From: a virus
Taxonomy: Duplodnaviria; Caudoviricetes
Direction: 5' to 3' (one strand)
IMG/VR virus record: IMGVR_UViG_2928595623_000002
Coordinates: 1-64,000 of that record
DNA length: 64,000 bases
Shown: in pieces, positions 2,406 through 24,048 of the stretch
Numbering within the stretch: the stretch's first letter is position 1
Layout: the number at the start of each line of letters is the position of its first letter
Notes under the pieces: model-generated
What the model saw: the letters and a program-made list of their open reading frames with translations, nothing else
Database searches by the model: none
Told to the model about the DNA's origin: nothing
Program-made: the position numbers and the translations under genes

Positions 2406-3132
2406 GGTCGCCTCCATTGAGAGCGGCGCGGCCAAGATCGCTGATGGTGTCATATTCTGACATGCCGCGGTAATTCTCTTCATCGTCGCATTCGCGTTTG
2501 AGATAGCCTTTGCTGCGCAGGCTTATGATTGCGTTGCCAACAAAGGCACCGTCGCCCTTCGTAAACCATGCCGCGTCGCCATCCTGTGAAAAGCGGATGG
2601 TGTCTCCGGCGGCAAGGCGCTTCAGGATTTCCGTCTCGTCGTCAACGATTGGGCGCAATATATGCTTCTTAGGCGTAGCCAGTTCCATAGCTTCCCGCAG
2701 CCGCTTGTTCTCCGCCTTGAGGTCGGTGATGTCGTCGGATGGCTGTGGATCGTTCATAAGCGCGCTTTCAACGCGCGCGGCCTGCTCAGTCGTCGGGAAA
2801 CTCAAAACGATCTGACCCGGAATAAGCCTGTCTTTGGGGATGCCTTCCCTTTCTGCTGACGCTCCCAATTCTCCCGGCATTTTTGCCTCGGTGATAAAAA
2901 CAGCGCCACGGGTTCCGTAAGTGCCTTTGGCAACCACAACCTTTCCTTCTCCAAAGCAGAGAATAGTTGCAATCTTCTGTTCCGGTGCGGCGGCAAGCAT
3001 GGCTTTATAATATCTCCGCATATAGGCATGCGTTCTTGCGCGCATTTCCTTGCTTTCGCCTGTGAGTTTCCAATAGGCGTCTAGCATCTCTTCAGTCGGC
3101 TCCAGTGGAACCATCTTCCATGCGTCAGTCAT
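2398..3132 (-). CDS. Hypothetical phage protein
   Basis: WKMVPLEPTEEML motif common in phage early genes. Confidence 0.7.
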   Translation of the reverse strand: MTDAWKMVPLEPTEEMLDAYWKLTGESKEMRARTHAYMRRYYKAMLAAAPEQKIATILCFGEGKVVVAKGTYGTRGAVFITEAKMPGELGASAEREGIPKDRLIPGQIVLSFPTTEQAARVESALMNDPQPSDDITDLKAENKRLREAMELATPKKHILRPIVDDETEILKRLAAGDTIRFSQDGDAAWFTKGDGAFVGNAIISLRSKGYLKRECDDEENYRGMSEYDTISDLGRAALNGGDHE

Positions 3133-3395
3133 CGCCTTGCATCCATCTGGTAACTTGTTTCTGTTTTACCGAGCCCAAAGCCGGCGGATGTTCCGATCAC
3201 TGCCAGCGCAAGCACCGTCCAAAGTACGCCGATGAATGCCGTGTGCATCTGATGGCGCCATTCCGCGATCGCTGCTTGCTTGATCGAAGTTGCCGTTTCA
3301 GACAGCGCCTTAGACGGACAGCGGCGGCAGGTTTCTCCGCCGTCACCTGCACATCCTCCAGCACCGTAGCGCGTGCAATTCGTAGCGTGTGTCAT
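3129..3395 (-). CDS. Hypothetical Cys-rich membrane protein
   Basis: Coupled ORF with one hydrophobic helix. Confidence 0.5.
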   Translation of the reverse strand: MTHATNCTRYGAGGCAGDGGETCRRCPSKALSETATSIKQAAIAEWRHQMHTAFIGVLWTVLALAVIGTSAGFGLGKTETSYQMDARR

Positions 3396-3574
3396 GCTTC
3401 ACCGCCTTTTCCTGCCATGGCATCAAGCTCTTTAAGAGCCAGTTCAATGCCTCTGTTGACGATCTCTGTATACGATATCCTATAAGGCCCAATTGTAGAC
3501 GCGCGCTCCAATGTGTCCCGCTGCTCGTCTGTTAGCCTAATAGTGAGTGTTTTCTTCTTCTCTTTGGTTCTCAT
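3392..3574 (-). CDS. Ribbon-helix-helix (Arc/CopG-like) DNA-binding protein
   Basis: KTLTIRLTDEQ beta-ribbon followed by two helices. Confidence 0.65.
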   Translation of the reverse strand: MRTKEKKKTLTIRLTDEQRDTLERASTIGPYRISYTEIVNRGIELALKELDAMAGKGGEA

Positions 3575-21055: not shown

Positions 21056-21262
21056 ATGAACGGATATAAGCCTTCTATGTATCTTGCGAAAATTGGCATA
21101 ACAGTCGCTGCATGTTCTGCTATTTTTGGCGTTATCGTGTTATCTGCGTCTATCTTGAAATATAACTCAGGAGACGCATTGGTGCAGGCATTAGTTGTTG
21201 GCGGAGCTGCTGCCGTGTTCCTAGTCAATGTCATCGCGTGCGCTTTTATCTGGCGCGCATAA
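21056..21262 (+). CDS. Small membrane protein
   Basis: Two TM segments; flanked by 17-bp direct repeat. Confidence 0.55.
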   Translation: MNGYKPSMYLAKIGITVAACSAIFGVIVLSASILKYNSGDALVQALVVGGAAAVFLVNVIACAFIWRA

Positions 21263-21278
21263 TGAAGGACGATTGAGC

Positions 21279-21893
21279 ATGGCAAACAACTGGTATGCAA
21301 TCCGCACACGTCCAGGCTCACAACGGCCTGTCAAGGCTGGTTATTCCGGTGACAGGTTTGTCGAGGACGAGACGATCATTGAACGCAACCTCCGCCATGC
21401 AGGTTTCGACGGGTTTATGCCGGCAACATACCGCGAGATCCGCCACCACCGTACAGACGAGTATATCACCAAGCGCTATCCGCTCATGGTTGGCTATATG
21501 TTCGTCCGCAATCCTGCCAGCTTCTACAAGCTAAAGGACGTCGTTGGCGTCTCTGACATCCTTGGCGTAGCTGGCTCGCCGATGGCGATCTCTGAGGCGA
21601 CTATTTCCGCTATTCGTGACGCAGAGGAACGCGAGATTGAAATTCTAGAACGTCGCCGTGCTGCAAGGCTGCAGAAAGAGCGCAAGCTATGCCGCAAGCT
21701 AACTCGCAAAGAGGCGCGTGAACTGTTCCCGGCGAACAAGCGCATCATTGTCTCAAGCGAAGGTTATCTTTCAGGCATGGCCGGGGTTATCGTGGATGCT
21801 ACAGGCCGCAATACGATCAAAGCTGTGATTAACACGTTGAATGGACTTGTTCCGGTTGAGCTTGGTATTGAAGATTTCCGTGAAGCAGTGTAA
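21279..21893 (+). CDS. NusG/RfaH-family late antiterminator
   Basis: NWYAIRT...PLMVGYMFV NGN domain plus KOW-like C-terminus; lambda Q position. Confidence 0.88.
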   Translation: MANNWYAIRTRPGSQRPVKAGYSGDRFVEDETIIERNLRHAGFDGFMPATYREIRHHRTDEYITKRYPLMVGYMFVRNPASFYKLKDVVGVSDILGVAGSPMAISEATISAIRDAEEREIEILERRRAARLQKERKLCRKLTRKEARELFPANKRIIVSSEGYLSGMAGVIVDATGRNTIKAVINTLNGLVPVELGIEDFREAV

Positions 21894-21995
21894 AGAGGTT
21901 TGCATTAGGCATGATTTTGGGTGTTCAGAGCGGTATCGCCGGCCCTCCGCCATATCTAAATGGCGCTGGGTTTATATTGCCTGAATTCCCGCATG

Positions 21996-22734
21996 TTTGC
22001 CGAATGCAGCATTGACTACATGAGATTGATGTCAGCGCAAGCCTTGTCGGCAAAGCAGTTTGGAATGGCGTGATTGACTGCCCATCGTTTGGCAGGATTA
22101 CGAAATGGTGATGGGTGCCTCCTTTGGCATAATCTTGCAAGTCCAGAGCCGATCCATTCCAAAGCATATCGCCATAGATGGCGCTGGCGGCCCGTATTGT
22201 GGTGAAAGCCGCGACGGATAACAAAAGACAACCTGTATAGGTTATCGCCGCTAATAGTTTGGAATGGTGTCTCAAAGGGCACGATGAGTTGGTAATAGCG
22301 CTGATTCCGCGCCGTATGGTTCGAATCCAACGCCGTTCCAAAGCATATCATACGATGGTGTTTAGTGGGTGGTGAAGCGCCTTATAGCGAGGGATGTAGT
22401 ACGGTCCCAGAAGCCCAGTACGATGGCAATGTCACTAGAACATCGTACTTGAGCACGGCAAGAAAAATCGCCATTGGCAGGCTAACCGTGCAGCCAAAAC
22501 ATATAAGACGATGGTGTTTTGAAGCCGCTCCGGAATGCAGGCTTCATGCTGCACCCCAACACCTCCTGCTAGCCAGGTTAAGCGGTCCGGCGGTCGTCTG
22601 TGTAATTCGCCAGAATGGGCAACGATATCAGCAAGCGGCGTGGATTAGTACACGCGGTTGGACCGAAACGACCTGAGAGTTCGGAGCCAGTTGGCCAGAC
22701 TACCTTTAGCCGGTGACAACCCGGCCTTGCTGAT
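21996..22734 (+). ncRNA. Array of stem-closed structured RNA modules
   Basis: About 8 consecutive modules with complementary ends; shared terminal repeats. Confidence 0.55.
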
Positions 22735-22740
22735 CATTCC

Positions 22741-22817
22741 GCCTGCATAGCTCAGCTGGATAGAGTCCATTCCTTCTAAGAATGTTGTCGCAGGTTCGAG
22801 CCCTGCTGCGGGCTCCA
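22741..22817 (+). tRNA. tRNA-Arg(UCU)
   Basis: GCCTGCA/TGCGGGC acceptor, CATTC-CTTCTAA-GAATG anticodon arm, GGTTCGAG T-loop, encoded CCA. Confidence 0.9.
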
Positions 22818-23547
22818 AGCCAAACGGAGAATACGACGTGACGTCGAACAGGTTCAAGCCGACTGGCAAGAAAGTCTTCGACCGCATCATGGCTGGCCTG
22901 CAAGAGGTCAAAGCCGCATCTCCTATGTGGGCCGATCTTGCGTATGAGAATATTTTCAACGTCTCCGAGCGTCATTGCAAGATTGGCCGCGTTACCATGA
23001 AGAGACGAAACCCGCTTCCTGAGATCAAGGAAGGTAAAAGAAACGTCGTCATTCAAAAGCGCAGAGTGTGGACGCGAAAAGATTCTGTCGATGCTGTCGA
23101 GAACATGGTGAACGGCGGAGTGCCTGGGCTTAGATAGCCAAAGCAGACGGCCTGCTAATAGCCGTAGTTGCATAAAAGTGTCTGGAAAGCCTCGTGAAGG
23201 ACAAGCCCGCAAGGGAGCGACTAGGGTAACAATTCATAGGGCGGGCCCCTCCTGTGCTCCTCCAAGCAGAGCGCCAAGCATCGATCGGTGAAAGCCGCAA
23301 TACCGCCGCCTAGCCTGTCCCTTTACAGGCCATGAACCGGGAAATCATGCATGCTGGATAATGTAAGGGCCATTGATATGGAAGTAGCATCAATACCGAT
23401 GCCGAATGTCGAACTAACCATTGAGGTCGTTACACCGAGAGCGTTTGGCCTGCGGCTCTCTCTCATGCGGGCGGCGCTATGGGTTGCTGGTTTCGTGGCG
23501 CCATCGAATATTGCGGTCAACACCGACATCAAGGTTATCTGAGATAG

Positions 23548-24048
23548 ATGCCTGTTCTCACCAATTCGCGGCATGAAGCGTTTGCGCAAGCCATAGCGAA
23601 AGGGGCAAGCGCAGTTGACGCTTATGTGCAGGCTGGATATGCACCAAGCCGTTCTGCTGCATCAAGGCTGTCAACAAATGTGAACATAGAGCGCCGTGTG
23701 GCGGAATTGATCAATAGAGGGGCCGACAGGGCAGAGGTTACAGTAGCCAGGGTTCTGCAAGAACTCTCTCGCATCGGCTTCTCCGATCTTCGACGCGCAT
23801 TCGACAAAAGCGGACGCCTATTGCGACCCGAGGAATGGGACGACGACACAGCTGCCGCTATCGCTTCTGTCGAAGTAGTGACGCGCAACATTGGCGATGG
23901 AGAAGTCGAACACGTCCACAAGATCAAGGTATGGGACAAGAACAGCGCTCTTGAGAAGATCGCCAAGCATCTTGGCATGTTTATCGAGCGCGTTGAACAC
24001 TCGGGCGGGATGTCTCTCAATGTGACGTCAGAGGACGCAGAACTGTGA
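23548..24048 (+). CDS. terS: Terminase small subunit
   Basis: N-terminal HTH (AYVQAGY); DK.SALE.IAKHLGMF. Confidence 0.92.
   Translation: MPVLTNSRHEAFAQAIAKGASAVDAYVQAGYAPSRSAASRLSTNVNIERRVAELINRGADRAEVTVARVLQELSRIGFSDLRRAFDKSGRLLRPEEWDDDTAAAIASVEVVTRNIGDGEVEHVHKIKVWDKNSALEKIAKHLGMFIERVEHSGGMSLNVTSEDAEL

What the first reader, a model, noticed from the sequence alone, without database searches (positions are those of the whole stretch)
21996..22817. Array of stem-closed small-RNA cassettes plus a tRNA at the head of the late operon
Seen: back-to-back modules, each closed by its own stem: tttgccga/tcggcaaa (21996-22054), tttggaatgg/ccattccaaa (22059-22163), tggcggc/gccgcta (22185-22253), tttggaatgg/ccgttccaaa (22258-22342), tacgatg/catcgta (22351-22447), gcacgg/ccgtgc (22453-22491), ggtgtt/aacacc (22513-22563), atcagcaag/cttgctgat (22627-22734), then tRNA-Arg. 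Modules 2 and 4 have identical frames (AGTTTGGAATGG ... TTCCAAAGCATATC) with unrelated interiors; module 1 also ends CAAAGCA; modules 5 and 7 share ACGATGGTGTTT. Module 2 can form a pseudoknot (gcaggatta/taatcttgc crossing gcccatc/gatgggt). Inference: a polycistronic, processed, exchangeable RNA array (constant frame, variable cargo), possibly decoys against host defences or sRNA regulators. This is the best candidate for an undescribed system.
Basis: partly seen in the sequence, partly recalled or inferred. Interest (0 to 1): 0.85.

Follow-up and report, generated by a model that had tools for sequence, protein, structure and literature searches.

The report
Swappable small-RNA cassettes before phage late genes
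A Rhizobium prophage carries, between its late-gene regulator and its DNA-packaging genes, a string of small hairpin-closed non-coding modules and a tRNA; related phages build similar strings from the same border sequences with unrelated interiors, and what the modules do is unknown.

Summary
The stems alone are weak evidence: tiling beats shuffles only for arms of 7 bp or more (2 of 200).

The comparative evidence is strong:
- The frame TTTGGAATGG..CCRTTCCAAAGC recurs in Rhizobiaceae-type phage contigs around 13 interiors that are no more alike than shuffled sequence.
- Near-identical relatives gain, lose or replace whole modules at module borders.
- Four module families show compensatory pair changes.
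- A GNRA-hairpin "punctuation" element precedes module 8 and modules in relatives, whose closing helices covary.
- Directly upstream lies a ~90-nt motif found behind phage NusG-paralog genes. It has covariation support and no Rfam match.

No coding signal explains the region.

Best reading: a modular non-coding array with tRNA-like members in the late-operon leader. Transcription, processing and function are all untested; no RNA data were available. Interiors are not unusually stable.

The scan had noted this stretch before (e1-6204167, e1-6216756).

The parts
21279..21893 (+). Phage NusG-paralog gene (transcription antiterminator). The longest ORF starts at 21228; homologues are 204-206 aa.
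   Evidence: Pfam NusG PF02357, 1.3e-9. PHROG 25909 'transcription antiterminator', 1.6e-35. 32 homologues, mostly 203-206 aa.
21897..21988 (+). Conserved leader motif ('module 0'), itself stem-closed. P1 is 21907-21911 with 21978-21982, the invariant box TGTTCAGAGCGGTATCGCCGG is 21922-21942, and the P3 hairpin is 21948-21953 with 21960-21965. The variable array begins right after its 3' end.
   Evidence: Alignment of 26 distinct copies behind NusG-paralog genes. 92.8% of cells paired against 84.3% shuffled (0 of 500); covariation score 0.256 against 0.112 (0 of 500); slid controls 0.06-0.11; P3 has double changes in 5 of 5 pairs. No Rfam match. Coordinates.
21996..22054 (+). Module 1: an 8-bp closing stem plus an inner hairpin.
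   Evidence: Stem verified. Homologues in L090, L092 and L147. 14 pairs, 4 with compensatory double changes. The two substitutions seen in relatives fall on unpaired bases.
22059..22163 (+). Module 2: frame A (TTTGGAATGG..CCATTCCAAA, trailer GCATATC) around a unique 85-nt interior.
   Evidence: In the X1 relative, 22061-22170 is replaced by 121 other letters.
22170..22183 (+). Small hairpin CGCCATAGATGGCG followed by CTGG. It repeats the P3 hairpin of the leader motif (TAAATGGCGCTGG / TAGATGGCGCTGG).
   Evidence: Direct repeat D4; coordinates.
22185..22253 (+). Module 3: a 7-bp closure (one G.U) and two inner hairpins.
   Evidence: Fold z -3.4, 0 of 200 shuffles as stable. In the X1 relative, 22233 C>A together with 22240 G>T turns a C-G pair into A-U, and 22230 A>G gives G-U.
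22258..22342 (+). Module 4: frame A around a tRNA-like interior (T-loop GGTTCGAATCC, no canonical anticodon arm).
   Evidence: Rfam tRNA-Sec 19.1 bits, E 0.83, below its gathering score of 47; not called by ARAGORN. 22267-22333 is 88% identical to Microcystis phage Mwe-JY13, where it lies in a GGGAAGCG..CGCTTCCC frame. T-stem U-A > G-C between the two, read by eye.
22351..22447 (+). Module 5: a 7-bp closure. Its borders are less certain.
   Evidence: Stem verified. Fold z -1.1, 28 of 200 shuffles as stable. No homologue found.
22453..22491 (+). Module 6: a 6-bp closure, not above chance.
22494..22519 (+). Second copy of the junction CCAAA(G/A)CATAT..ACGATGGTGTTT. Its first half reads as a lone 3' half of frame A plus trailer.
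   Evidence: Direct repeat D2, 26 nt, 88%. The X2 relative joins 22170 directly to 22506.
22513..22563 (+). Module 7: a 6-bp closure GGTGTT/AACACC with an inner hairpin. An outer AGACGA/TCGTCT pairing (about 22503-22599) is also possible.
Evidence: The outer pairing was read by eye only.
22605..22628 (+). Punctuation element ATTCGCC-AGAAT-GGGC-AACGATAT: a small hairpin plus an A-rich linker.
   Evidence: Family (A)TTCGCC-GAAA-GGC-AAACGAGAT found in about 12 arrays. Cassette joints of the X1 and X3 relatives fall at 22606.
22627..22734 (+). Module 8: a 9-bp closure ATCAGCAAG/CTTGCTGAT and four inner arms, in a layout like a class II tRNA.
   Evidence: Fold z -3.0, 1 of 200. Covered together with the tRNA by contigs of all 4 runs laid; no listed substitution falls inside it, and one row of that table was not shown. 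It belongs to the post-punctuation class whose closing helices covary.
22741..22817 (+). tRNA-Arg(TCT), with CCA encoded.
22838..23137 (+). 99-aa accessory ORF that interrupts the non-coding stretch.
   Evidence: No Pfam or PHROG match. 22818-23138 is absent from the X1 and X2 relatives, which have 16 other letters there.
23139..23547 (+). A further ~400 nt before terS, starting CAAAGCAGACGG and holding a GCCC-GCAA-GGGC hairpin; I judge it non-coding by reading, although one search lists three short + strand ORFs (37, 63 and 51 aa) inside it. It may continue the array; not analysed.
   Evidence: Sequence read. terS at 23548-24048, Pfam Terminase_2.

Best explanation
The ~850 nt between the phage NusG-paralog gene and tRNA-Arg/terS form the untranslated leader of the late operon. 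The leader is built as a modular array.

Layout. It opens with a conserved, structured leader motif (21897-21988). By analogy with LoaP-type NusG paralogs, this motif probably lets the phage antiterminator load onto RNA polymerase. Behind it lie independently exchangeable cassettes. Each is a short RNA closed by a helix between its own 5' and 3' ends. Some are tRNA-like, and some are preceded by a small hairpin plus an A-rich linker. The array ends in a true tRNA.

Mechanism I think most likely. The array is transcribed together with the tRNA. The host tRNA-maturation and RNA-decay nucleases cut it: RNase P at the 5' edge of the acceptor-like closing helices, RNase E or 3' trimming in the linkers. 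In most relatives those helices carry a G-C(C)CA tail. The products would be stable small RNAs.

Shown here: the non-coding nature, the position, the recurrence of the frames, cassette-level exchange, pairing constraints in several modules and in the leader motif, and a strand-specific (RNA-type) signature.

Inferred only: transcription as one unit, processing, and the role of the released RNAs. My guess for that role is tRNA-mimic or host-directed RNAs under fast turnover.
For: Position and non-coding nature
- NusG-like gene upstream, terS and terL downstream.
- Low codon-position GC periodicity over 22000-22750.
- No Pfam, PHROG or homologue for the ORFs inside.
- Length changes in relatives are not multiples of three.

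Frame A
- 9 of 14 IMG/VR hits share (C/G)AG-TTTGGAATGG..CC(A/G)TTCCAAA-GC.
- 9 metagenome and 3 genome hits.
- 13 interiors kept of 14 distinct; they are alike only at null level.

Cassette exchange among relatives 95-99% alike
- Module 2 replaced; modules 3-6 or 2-7 missing; 238- and 152-nt insertions at module borders.

Pairing constraint
- Compensatory double changes in 4 of 14 pairs (m1), 3 of 24, 1 of 21 and 1 of 22 pairs in three other families.
- C-G > A-U in m3.
- Of 12 substitutions inside modules, 7 are unpaired, 4 keep pairing and 1 breaks an MFE pair.

Punctuation element
- 9 of 11 array copies are followed within 0-2 nt by a closing helix of 7 bp or more, using at least 5 different sequences.
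- Background is 473 of 3000 random positions.

Leader motif
- 26 distinct copies with covariation.
- Conserved U.G and G.U pairs (UG in 26 of 26, 23 of 26 and 21 of 26 sequences at three columns) would be A.C mismatches on the other strand. That points to sense-strand RNA.

tRNA likeness
- T-loops in 3 interiors. ARAGORN calls one frame-A module a 97-nt tRNA.
- True tRNA-Met ends ..ACCA-G or ..ACCAA directly before a frame.
- The trailer is G-C(C)CA in 11 of 13 frame-A modules.

Precedents read as passages
- RNase P cuts phage M3 and C4 RNAs (PMC11143913).
- LoaP binds a leader RNA hairpin (PMC12691694).
- BaGTA has an 864-bp attenuating leader under a processive antiterminator (bioRxiv 10.1101/2024.11.20.624540, abstract and section 7).
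Against: - No expression or processing data of any kind.
- Interiors are not more stable than dinucleotide shuffles (mean z -0.34, best 12 of 200).
- The 6-bp closures are at chance level.
- The global fold prefers cross-pairing of the two frame-A copies.
- Both frame-A modules of the window itself lack the CCA tail (trailer GCATATC).
- No + strand terminator-like site in the window. In relatives the tool calls the array-end hairpin in L092 but not in L090.
- The array is absent from most TerL relatives: blastn found nothing in 80 loci.
- Whole cassettes come and go, so no single module is essential.
- The family is rare: frame A in 2 of 401 genomes sampled from the host's family.
- Compensatory counts rest on 2-4 sequences per family.
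Confidence: 0.5

Rival explanations
1. Evolutionary debris. The gap between regulator and packaging genes tolerates insertions and collects decayed tRNA genes, tRNA fragments and recombination scars. On this reading the frames are leftovers of acceptor stems and crossover points, with no function of their own.
For: - Interiors are unrelated and no more stable than shuffles.
- Cassettes are dispensable among near-identical relatives.
- tRNA-half-like pieces occur in L167.
- The same position holds tRNA-Met, HNH genes or small ORFs in other relatives.
Against: - Frames, trailers and punctuation stay nearly identical between phages whose neighbouring regulator differs: a NusG paralog in L092, other unrelated upstream genes in L086, L090, L091 and L094.
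- Compensatory changes.
- Covarying closing helices after the punctuation element.
- GNRA loops and strand-asymmetric flanks.
Confidence: 0.2
2. A purely cis-acting leader. The structured, untranslated RNA only shields the long leader and the tRNA from Rho and nucleases, or attenuates late transcription until the antiterminator acts. The interiors are filler.
For: - The position behind the antiterminator gene and the conserved leader motif.
- GC-rich hairpins followed by T-containing tails end the arrays of relatives, by reading in 8 arrays; the tool calls one in L092.
- Analogies with the BaGTA and dfn leaders (bioRxiv 10.1101/2024.11.20.624540 section 7; PMC12691694 passages).
- The filler idea fits.
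Against: - It does not explain sequence-level conservation of the frames and the CCA-type tails.
- It does not explain tRNA-like interiors kept at 88% identity between distant phages.
- It does not explain why module 8 is kept as well as the tRNA in four runs.
- No + strand terminator-like site in the window.
Confidence: 0.15
3. DNA-level mobile or recombination elements: miniature inverted-repeat elements or attC-like hairpin sites, whose inverted repeats are substrates of a recombinase.
For: - 10-bp inverted repeats flank variable DNA.
- Presence, absence and replacement occur at exact borders.
- The same interior occurs in different frames.
Against: - One or two copies per genome, and only in phage leaders.
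- No target duplication is seen.
- Interiors differ within one 'family', unlike miniature inverted-repeat elements.
- The flanks are asymmetric and always co-oriented with tRNAs and T-loops.
- Conserved G.U pairs work only in sense RNA.
- Ordinary homologous recombination in the conserved flanks suffices for replacement.
Confidence: 0.08
4. One large ornate RNA of the GOLLD/ROOL kind, whose domains the reader took for separate modules.
For: - About 850 nt, in a prophage, next to a tRNA, with a pseudo-tRNA inside. These traits are described for GOLLD: bioRxiv 10.1101/2024.12.08.627333 and PMC6582537, passages read.
- Long-range pairing between the two frame-A copies is possible.
Against: - No GOLLD, ROOL or other Rfam match at E up to 10 in the window, or up to 1 in 16 related loci.
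- No conserved core: close relatives keep only the leader motif, module 1, module 8 and the tRNA (X3 contig).
Confidence: 0.07

Closest known systems
Phage tRNA gene clusters with co-transcribed small stable RNAs (T4 tRNA region with species 1 and 2 RNAs; phage phi80 M3 RNA, an RNase P substrate)
   Same: Tandem, tightly spaced, stem-closed small RNA genes beside true tRNAs in a phage. Acceptor-like closing helices, partly with NCCA-type tails. Function of the non-tRNA members unknown. RNase P cutting of phage M3 and C4 RNAs is stated in PMC11143913 (passage read). The T4 details are recalled, not from a call.
   Different: Here the closing helices and linkers are shared 'frames' around unrelated interiors. 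Whole units are swapped between near-identical phages. Most members are not cloverleaf-like. The array sits in the late-operon leader behind an antiterminator gene. Processing is untested.
GOLLD and ROOL RNAs
   Same: Large non-coding stretch of prophages near tRNA islands. Variable region that can hold tRNAs or a pseudo-tRNA, with an HNH gene nearby in some relatives. Unknown function. Sources: bioRxiv 10.1101/2024.12.08.627333 and PMC6582537 (passages read).
   Different: No match to either Rfam model. No conserved core domain. Units are individually gained and lost.
Leader-RNA-dependent processive antitermination (LoaP with the dfn leader hairpin; lambda Q with the PR' leader and 6S RNA; BrrG of Bartonella BaGTA)
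   Same: A specialised elongation factor encoded next to a long untranslated leader. A conserved structured element lies at the start of the leader, and in relatives terminator-like hairpins end it. Sources: PMC12691694 passages; bioRxiv 10.1101/2024.11.20.624540 abstract and section 7. The lambda details are recalled.
   Different: The ~90-120-nt leader motif here is a new sequence and structure, not a UNCG hairpin. Binding to the NusG paralog is untested. Known leaders do not carry exchangeable framed cassettes or tRNAs.
Repeat-punctuated processed RNA arrays (CRISPR arrays, ToxI) and integron cassette arrays
   Same: Works alike in form: constant border elements, variable inserts, and gain, loss and replacement of whole units.
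   Different: Borders are inverted (helix-forming around the insert), not direct repeats. No Cas, ToxN or integrase-type gene was seen next to the array in the ORFs annotated here; these families were not searched for specifically. Inserts are 54-85 nt of varied length. This is a resemblance only, recalled from general knowledge.
Bacterial Y RNAs (YrlA) with Rsr/Ro60
   Same: A long helix formed by the 5' and 3' ends closes a tRNA-like domain; found in some phages (recalled).
   Different: No YrlA match in Rfam. No TROVE protein in the provirus, and only a sub-threshold match in the host genome (20.6 bits against a cut-off of 23).

Membership tests
tRNA (module 4 and other T-loop-bearing interiors) | Cloverleaf that scores above the Rfam tRNA gathering score, or is called by ARAGORN with a 7-nt anticodon loop | tested here: not met
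   Module 4 has no tRNA hit. Its only hit is tRNA-Sec at 19.1 bits against a gathering score of 47, E 0.83, and ARAGORN does not call it. The L087 module is called a 97-nt 'tRNA-Arg(gcg)' by ARAGORN but has no Rfam tRNA hit at E up to 1.
tRNA (module 4 and other T-loop-bearing interiors) | T-arm with the GTTCRANYC loop stacked on a 7-bp acceptor helix | tested here: met
   GGTTCGAATCC at 22318 next to the 3' strand of the closing helix. Similar loops in L105 and L087. T-stem U-A > G-C between the window and Mwe-JY13 (by eye).
GOLLD / ROOL | Match to the conserved core of the Rfam models | tested here: not met
   cmscan with permissive filters: no hit at E up to 10 in 21800-23000, and none at E up to 1 in 9 plus 7 related loci.
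GOLLD / ROOL | Prophage location next to tRNA genes | tested here: met
   The provirus record holds tRNA-Arg at the 3' end of the array. Relatives have tRNA-Met there.
Y RNA (YrlA) with Rsr | Rfam YrlA match and a TROVE-domain partner | tested here: not met
   No YrlA hit. PF05731 has 0 matches in the provirus; the host genome's best match is 20.6 bits, below the cut-off of 23.
Known self-cleaving ribozymes (hammerhead, twister, pistol, hatchet, HDV-like) | Match to an Rfam ribozyme model | tested here: not met
   None among the hits at E up to 10.
RNase P non-tRNA substrates (hairpin plus 3' NCCA) | Helix formed by the 5' and 3' ends, followed by a single-stranded N-CCA tail | tested here: inconclusive
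   The G-C(C)CA tail follows 11 of 13 frame-A modules, but neither of the window's two. These tails are homologous, so they are not independent cases.
RNase P non-tRNA substrates (hairpin plus 3' NCCA) | Cleavage by RNase P at the 5' edge of the helix | not testable with these tools
   Needs an enzyme assay or end mapping.
NusG-paralog (LoaP/RfaH-type) recruitment element | Conserved element at the start of the leader of the operon controlled by the paralog | tested here: met
   The TGTTC box lies within about 60 nt after the stop codon in about 32 of 40 distinct regions downstream of NusG-like genes. Structure with covariation in 26 copies.
NusG-paralog (LoaP/RfaH-type) recruitment element | Specific binding of the paralog and dependence of read-through on the element | not testable with these tools
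   Needs binding and reporter assays.
Miniature inverted-repeat elements / attC-type sites | Many dispersed copies per genome, or a linked transposase or integrase | tested here: not met
   The frame-A pattern occurs in 2 of 401 sampled genomes of the host's family, at 1-2 sites each. All copies found lie in phage leaders.

The most novel reading that the evidence does not exclude
These phages keep a cassette system for small RNAs. The late-operon leader would act as a loading dock: a dedicated NusG-paralog recruitment RNA opens it, and standard borders (acceptor-like frames with NCCA tails, GNRA-hairpin punctuation) make any inserted 50-110-nt sequence into a correctly excised, stable, tRNA-end-mimicking RNA. 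Phages would trade these cargoes as integrons trade genes. The fast turnover of cargo would reflect an arms race, for example decoys or guides aimed at host tRNA-directed or RNA-directed defences.
Probability: 0.2. Interest if true: 0.85.

Novelty: new variant of a known kind. Interest (0 to 1): 0.64.

Why it matters
Phage tRNA islands and the ornate RNAs beside them (GOLLD, ROOL) are a long-standing puzzle. This locus offers a simpler case that can be taken apart: short units with recognisable borders, natural swap variants, and a host (Rhizobium alvei by record title) that is not a pathogen.

If the units are excised, the frames would be natural expression scaffolds for small RNAs, and would expose a hidden layer of phage-host RNA traffic.

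Independently of that, the leader motif behind phage NusG-paralog genes is a covariation-supported RNA candidate absent from Rfam. It could show how a phage-encoded NusG paralog is recruited, which is known so far for only a few cellular paralogs.

If instead the array is debris, it documents how tRNA-like remnants accumulate at one permissive phage site.

Tried and rejected
- Sequence search of the array (21894-22840) against 80 TerL-relative loci and 48 NusG-relative loci. It found only the Mwe-JY13 piece, the leader motif and a weak module-1 match.
- The two first pattern scans for the module-4 interior found nothing. The single-protein scan with the NusG-like protein found no relative.
- The closest named phages by TerL (Synechococcus phages Yong-M4-211 and Ssp-JY42, 73%) lack the array.
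- An ORF-gap survey was useless, because spurious ORFs fill GC-rich DNA.
- The global MFE was uninformative.
- Protein-coding explanation rejected.
- Rsr/Y RNA rejected.
- A terminator motif shared by relatives (GTCACCCGG) is not enriched in the window: 13 matches against 12.2 expected, none in the array.
- Sequencing runs: no RNA holder was listed, and the one 'RNA-Seq' metagenome run laid was judged probably DNA by the tool. Nothing can therefore be said about expression.
- An ops-like reading of GCGGTATCGC in the leader motif, and of GGCGGTCGTCTG at 22588-22599, rests on a recalled E. coli consensus and was not tested.
- Literature: searches found no description of framed cassettes or of this leader motif.
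Full report
**What is in the window.** The + strand carries:
- a NusG-like gene at 21228/21279-21893 (Pfam NusG 1.3e-9; PHROG 'transcription antiterminator' 1.6e-35);
- about 850 nt without a convincing gene;
- tRNA-Arg(TCT) at 22741-22817;
- a 99-aa ORF;
- another ~400 nt before terS in which I see no convincing gene (one search lists three short + strand ORFs there, not examined further);
- terS and terL.

The record is a provirus of 72,169 nt. Modules 2 and 4 occur letter for letter in the genome that holds L099, whose record title is Rhizobium alvei TNR-22.

**The observation.**
Six are perfect, and m3 and m4 each have one G.U.
- The identical frames of modules 2 and 4 and the repeated junction at 22338 and 22494 are confirmed.
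- By themselves the stems are weak evidence. With arms of 6 bp or more, stem-closed tiling covers 650 of 745 nt against 613 +/- 37 in shuffles (32 of 200 as high). With arms of 7 bp or more it covers 570 against 387 +/- 85 (2 of 200).
- Module folds have z from -1.1 to -3.4, but the borders were picked by the stems.
- A global fold does not keep the local closures. It also fails on the real tRNA, so it decides nothing.

**No protein explains the region.**
- Codon-position GC periodicity is low over 22000-22750.
- The three longest ORFs inside have no Pfam or PHROG family.
- The 103-aa + strand ORF has no homologue among 5.8 billion proteins.
- Close relatives differ by length changes that would shift every frame.

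**The frame is real and recurrent.**
- The pattern TTTGGAATGG-N55-85-TTCCAAAGC gave 14 IMG/VR hits. Nine share the longer frame (C/G)AG-TTTGGAATGG..CC(A/G)TTCCAAA-GC(C)CAT; I judged the other five (L084, L088, L089, L095, L096) to be chance.
- A stricter pattern gave 9 metagenome contigs and 3 species genomes: two Shinella and R. alvei.
- In a sample of 401 genomes of the host's family only 2 have it.
- Together there are 14 distinct interiors. I dropped one (L107) that reads like a signal peptide.
- The remaining 13 have a median pairwise identity of 0.54 against 0.53 for shuffled pairs. Only three pairs exceed the null maximum.
- So 'constant frame, variable cargo' holds.
- A second frame, (A)TCGGGAAG..CTTCCCGA-CCCCATACGGCATAGCC, follows frame A in many arrays. 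Its 25-nt trailer occurs in 14 IMG/VR contigs.

**Cassettes are exchanged.** Contigs of four public runs, 95-99% alike to the window, were laid on 21600-23200.
- One 3.3-kb contig (X1) has 238 extra letters just before module 1.
- The same contig has 121 other letters in place of module 2 (22061-22170).
- It has 152 extra letters just before 22606.
- It has 16 letters in place of the 99-aa ORF region.
- A second run (X3) joins module 1 to 22606 through 102 other letters.
- A third (X2) joins 22170 directly to 22506.
- All joints lie at module borders.
- The interior of module 4 is 88% identical to a stretch of Microcystis phage Mwe-JY13. There it lies inside a GGGAAGCG..CGCTTCCC helix, in a ~790-nt non-coding stretch.
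- Another interior occurs in different frames in L091 and L118 (by reading).

**Pairing is under constraint.**
- Module 1 has homologues in L090, L092 and L147: of 14 pairs, 4 show compensatory double changes.
- Three other module families give 3 of 24, 1 of 21 and 1 of 22.
- In the close relatives, 12 listed substitutions fall in modules. Seven are unpaired. Four keep pairing, including C-G to A-U in module 3. One breaks a pair of the MFE fold of module 4, but that base lies in a loop in the tRNA-like reading.
- These counts rest on few sequences.
- Against structure: interiors are no more stable than shuffles (mean z -0.34).

**A punctuation element.**
- Before module 8 lies ATTCGCC-AGAAT-GGGC-AACGATAT (22605-22628).
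- Its family, (A)TTCGCC-GAAA-GGC-AAACGAGAT, is mostly a GNRA-loop hairpin plus an A-rich linker. It occurs in about 12 arrays.
- Of 24 regex hits I kept the 11 that lie in arrays. I dropped 13; ten of those are another motif (CGCCTACGGCGACGAAAT), about 5.7 kb downstream of the terL start.
- Nine of the 11 are followed within 0-2 nt by a closing helix of 7 bp or more, using at least five different sequences.
- The background rate is 473 of 3000 random positions. The binomial P for 8 or more of 11 is 4e-5.
- Module 8 belongs to this class.
- Two cassette joints fall exactly at the start of this element.

**A conserved leader motif.**
- Window 21901-21987 is conserved behind NusG-like genes.
- In about 32 of 40 distinct downstream regions a TGTTC box lies within about 60 nt of the stop codon.
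- Twenty-six distinct copies align to a stem-closed structure.
- 92.8% of cells are paired against 84.3% in shuffles (0 of 500). The covariation score is 0.256 against 0.112 (0 of 500), and slid controls give 0.06-0.11.
- The P3 hairpin has double changes in 5 of 5 pairs.
- Conserved U.G and G.U pairs make sense only for + strand RNA.
- Rfam has no match.
- The variable array starts right after this motif.

**tRNA likeness.**
- Three interiors carry T-loops. One frame-A module is called a 97-nt tRNA by ARAGORN but not by Rfam.
- True tRNA-Met genes end ..ACCA-G or ..ACCAA directly before a frame.
- The trailer after frame A is G-C(C)CA in 11 of 13 modules; the two exceptions are those of the window.
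- tRNA-Met(CAT) lies downstream of the NusG-like gene in 14 of 48 loci, and upstream of terL in 13 of the 83 loci scanned.

**Reading.** The region is most likely the late-operon leader. It opens with a recruitment RNA for the phage NusG paralog; for comparison, LoaP binds a leader hairpin (PMC12691694, passages). It continues with exchangeable, helix-closed small-RNA units and a tRNA, which tRNA-maturation nucleases may release; RNase P is known to cut phage M3 and C4 RNAs (PMC11143913, passage). Long attenuating leaders under processive antiterminators exist in a related bacterial order (BaGTA, bioRxiv 10.1101/2024.11.20.624540, abstract and section 7). Transcription, processing and function are inferences. 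The rivals are debris, a purely cis-acting leader, DNA-level elements, and one large GOLLD-like RNA; each is weighed in its own section.

**Limits.**
- No RNA data.
- Supplementary tables were closed.
- The comparative sets are small.
- Several structural statements were made by reading the sequence and are marked as such.

Noticed in passing
window 22838-23137: The 99-aa ORF between the tRNA and terS is missing from two close relatives, which have 16 other letters there. It shares an RHC(K/R)IGR(V/I)T stretch with a 92-aa ORF at the same place in L033. No family was found.
   Followed up: partly
window 23139-23547: Another ~400 nt before terS in which I see no convincing gene (one search lists three short + strand ORFs of 37, 63 and 51 aa there, not examined). 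It begins CAAAGCAGACGG, like the module trailers, and holds a GCCC-GCAA-GGGC hairpin also seen before frame A in L085. It may be a second part of the array.
   Followed up: no
window 22588-22599 and 21930-21939: GGCGGTCGTCTG, and GCGGTATCGC inside the leader motif, resemble the recalled E. coli RfaH ops element. This is a post hoc resemblance and was not tested.
   Followed up: no
L001 (Microcystis phage Mwe-JY13) 2343-3136; L002 and L003 (Synechococcus phages): Phages recorded with cyanobacterial hosts share Rhizobiaceae-prophage features. Mwe-JY13 has a ~790-nt non-coding stretch with the same punctuation elements and frame-B-like end. Two 'Synechococcus' phages have TerL 73% identical to this prophage. 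The recorded hosts may deserve a second look.
   Followed up: no
L167 about 2950-3560 (reverse strand): This array holds several pieces that read like tRNA halves (D-arm-like and T-arm-like segments) separated by punctuation elements, rather than whole tRNAs.
   Followed up: no
L004-L045, about 5.7 kb downstream of the terL start: The motif CGCCTACGGCGACGAAAT recurs in at least 10 TerL-relative loci, just upstream of a ribosome-binding site and start codon. It is unrelated to the arrays and remains unexplained.
   Followed up: no
L114 (Sinorhizobium phage phiLM21) 4928-5060: The record annotates tRNA-Met on the minus strand. The sequence reads as a + strand tRNA-Met(CAT) followed by ACCAG and a terminator-like hairpin.
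   Followed up: partly
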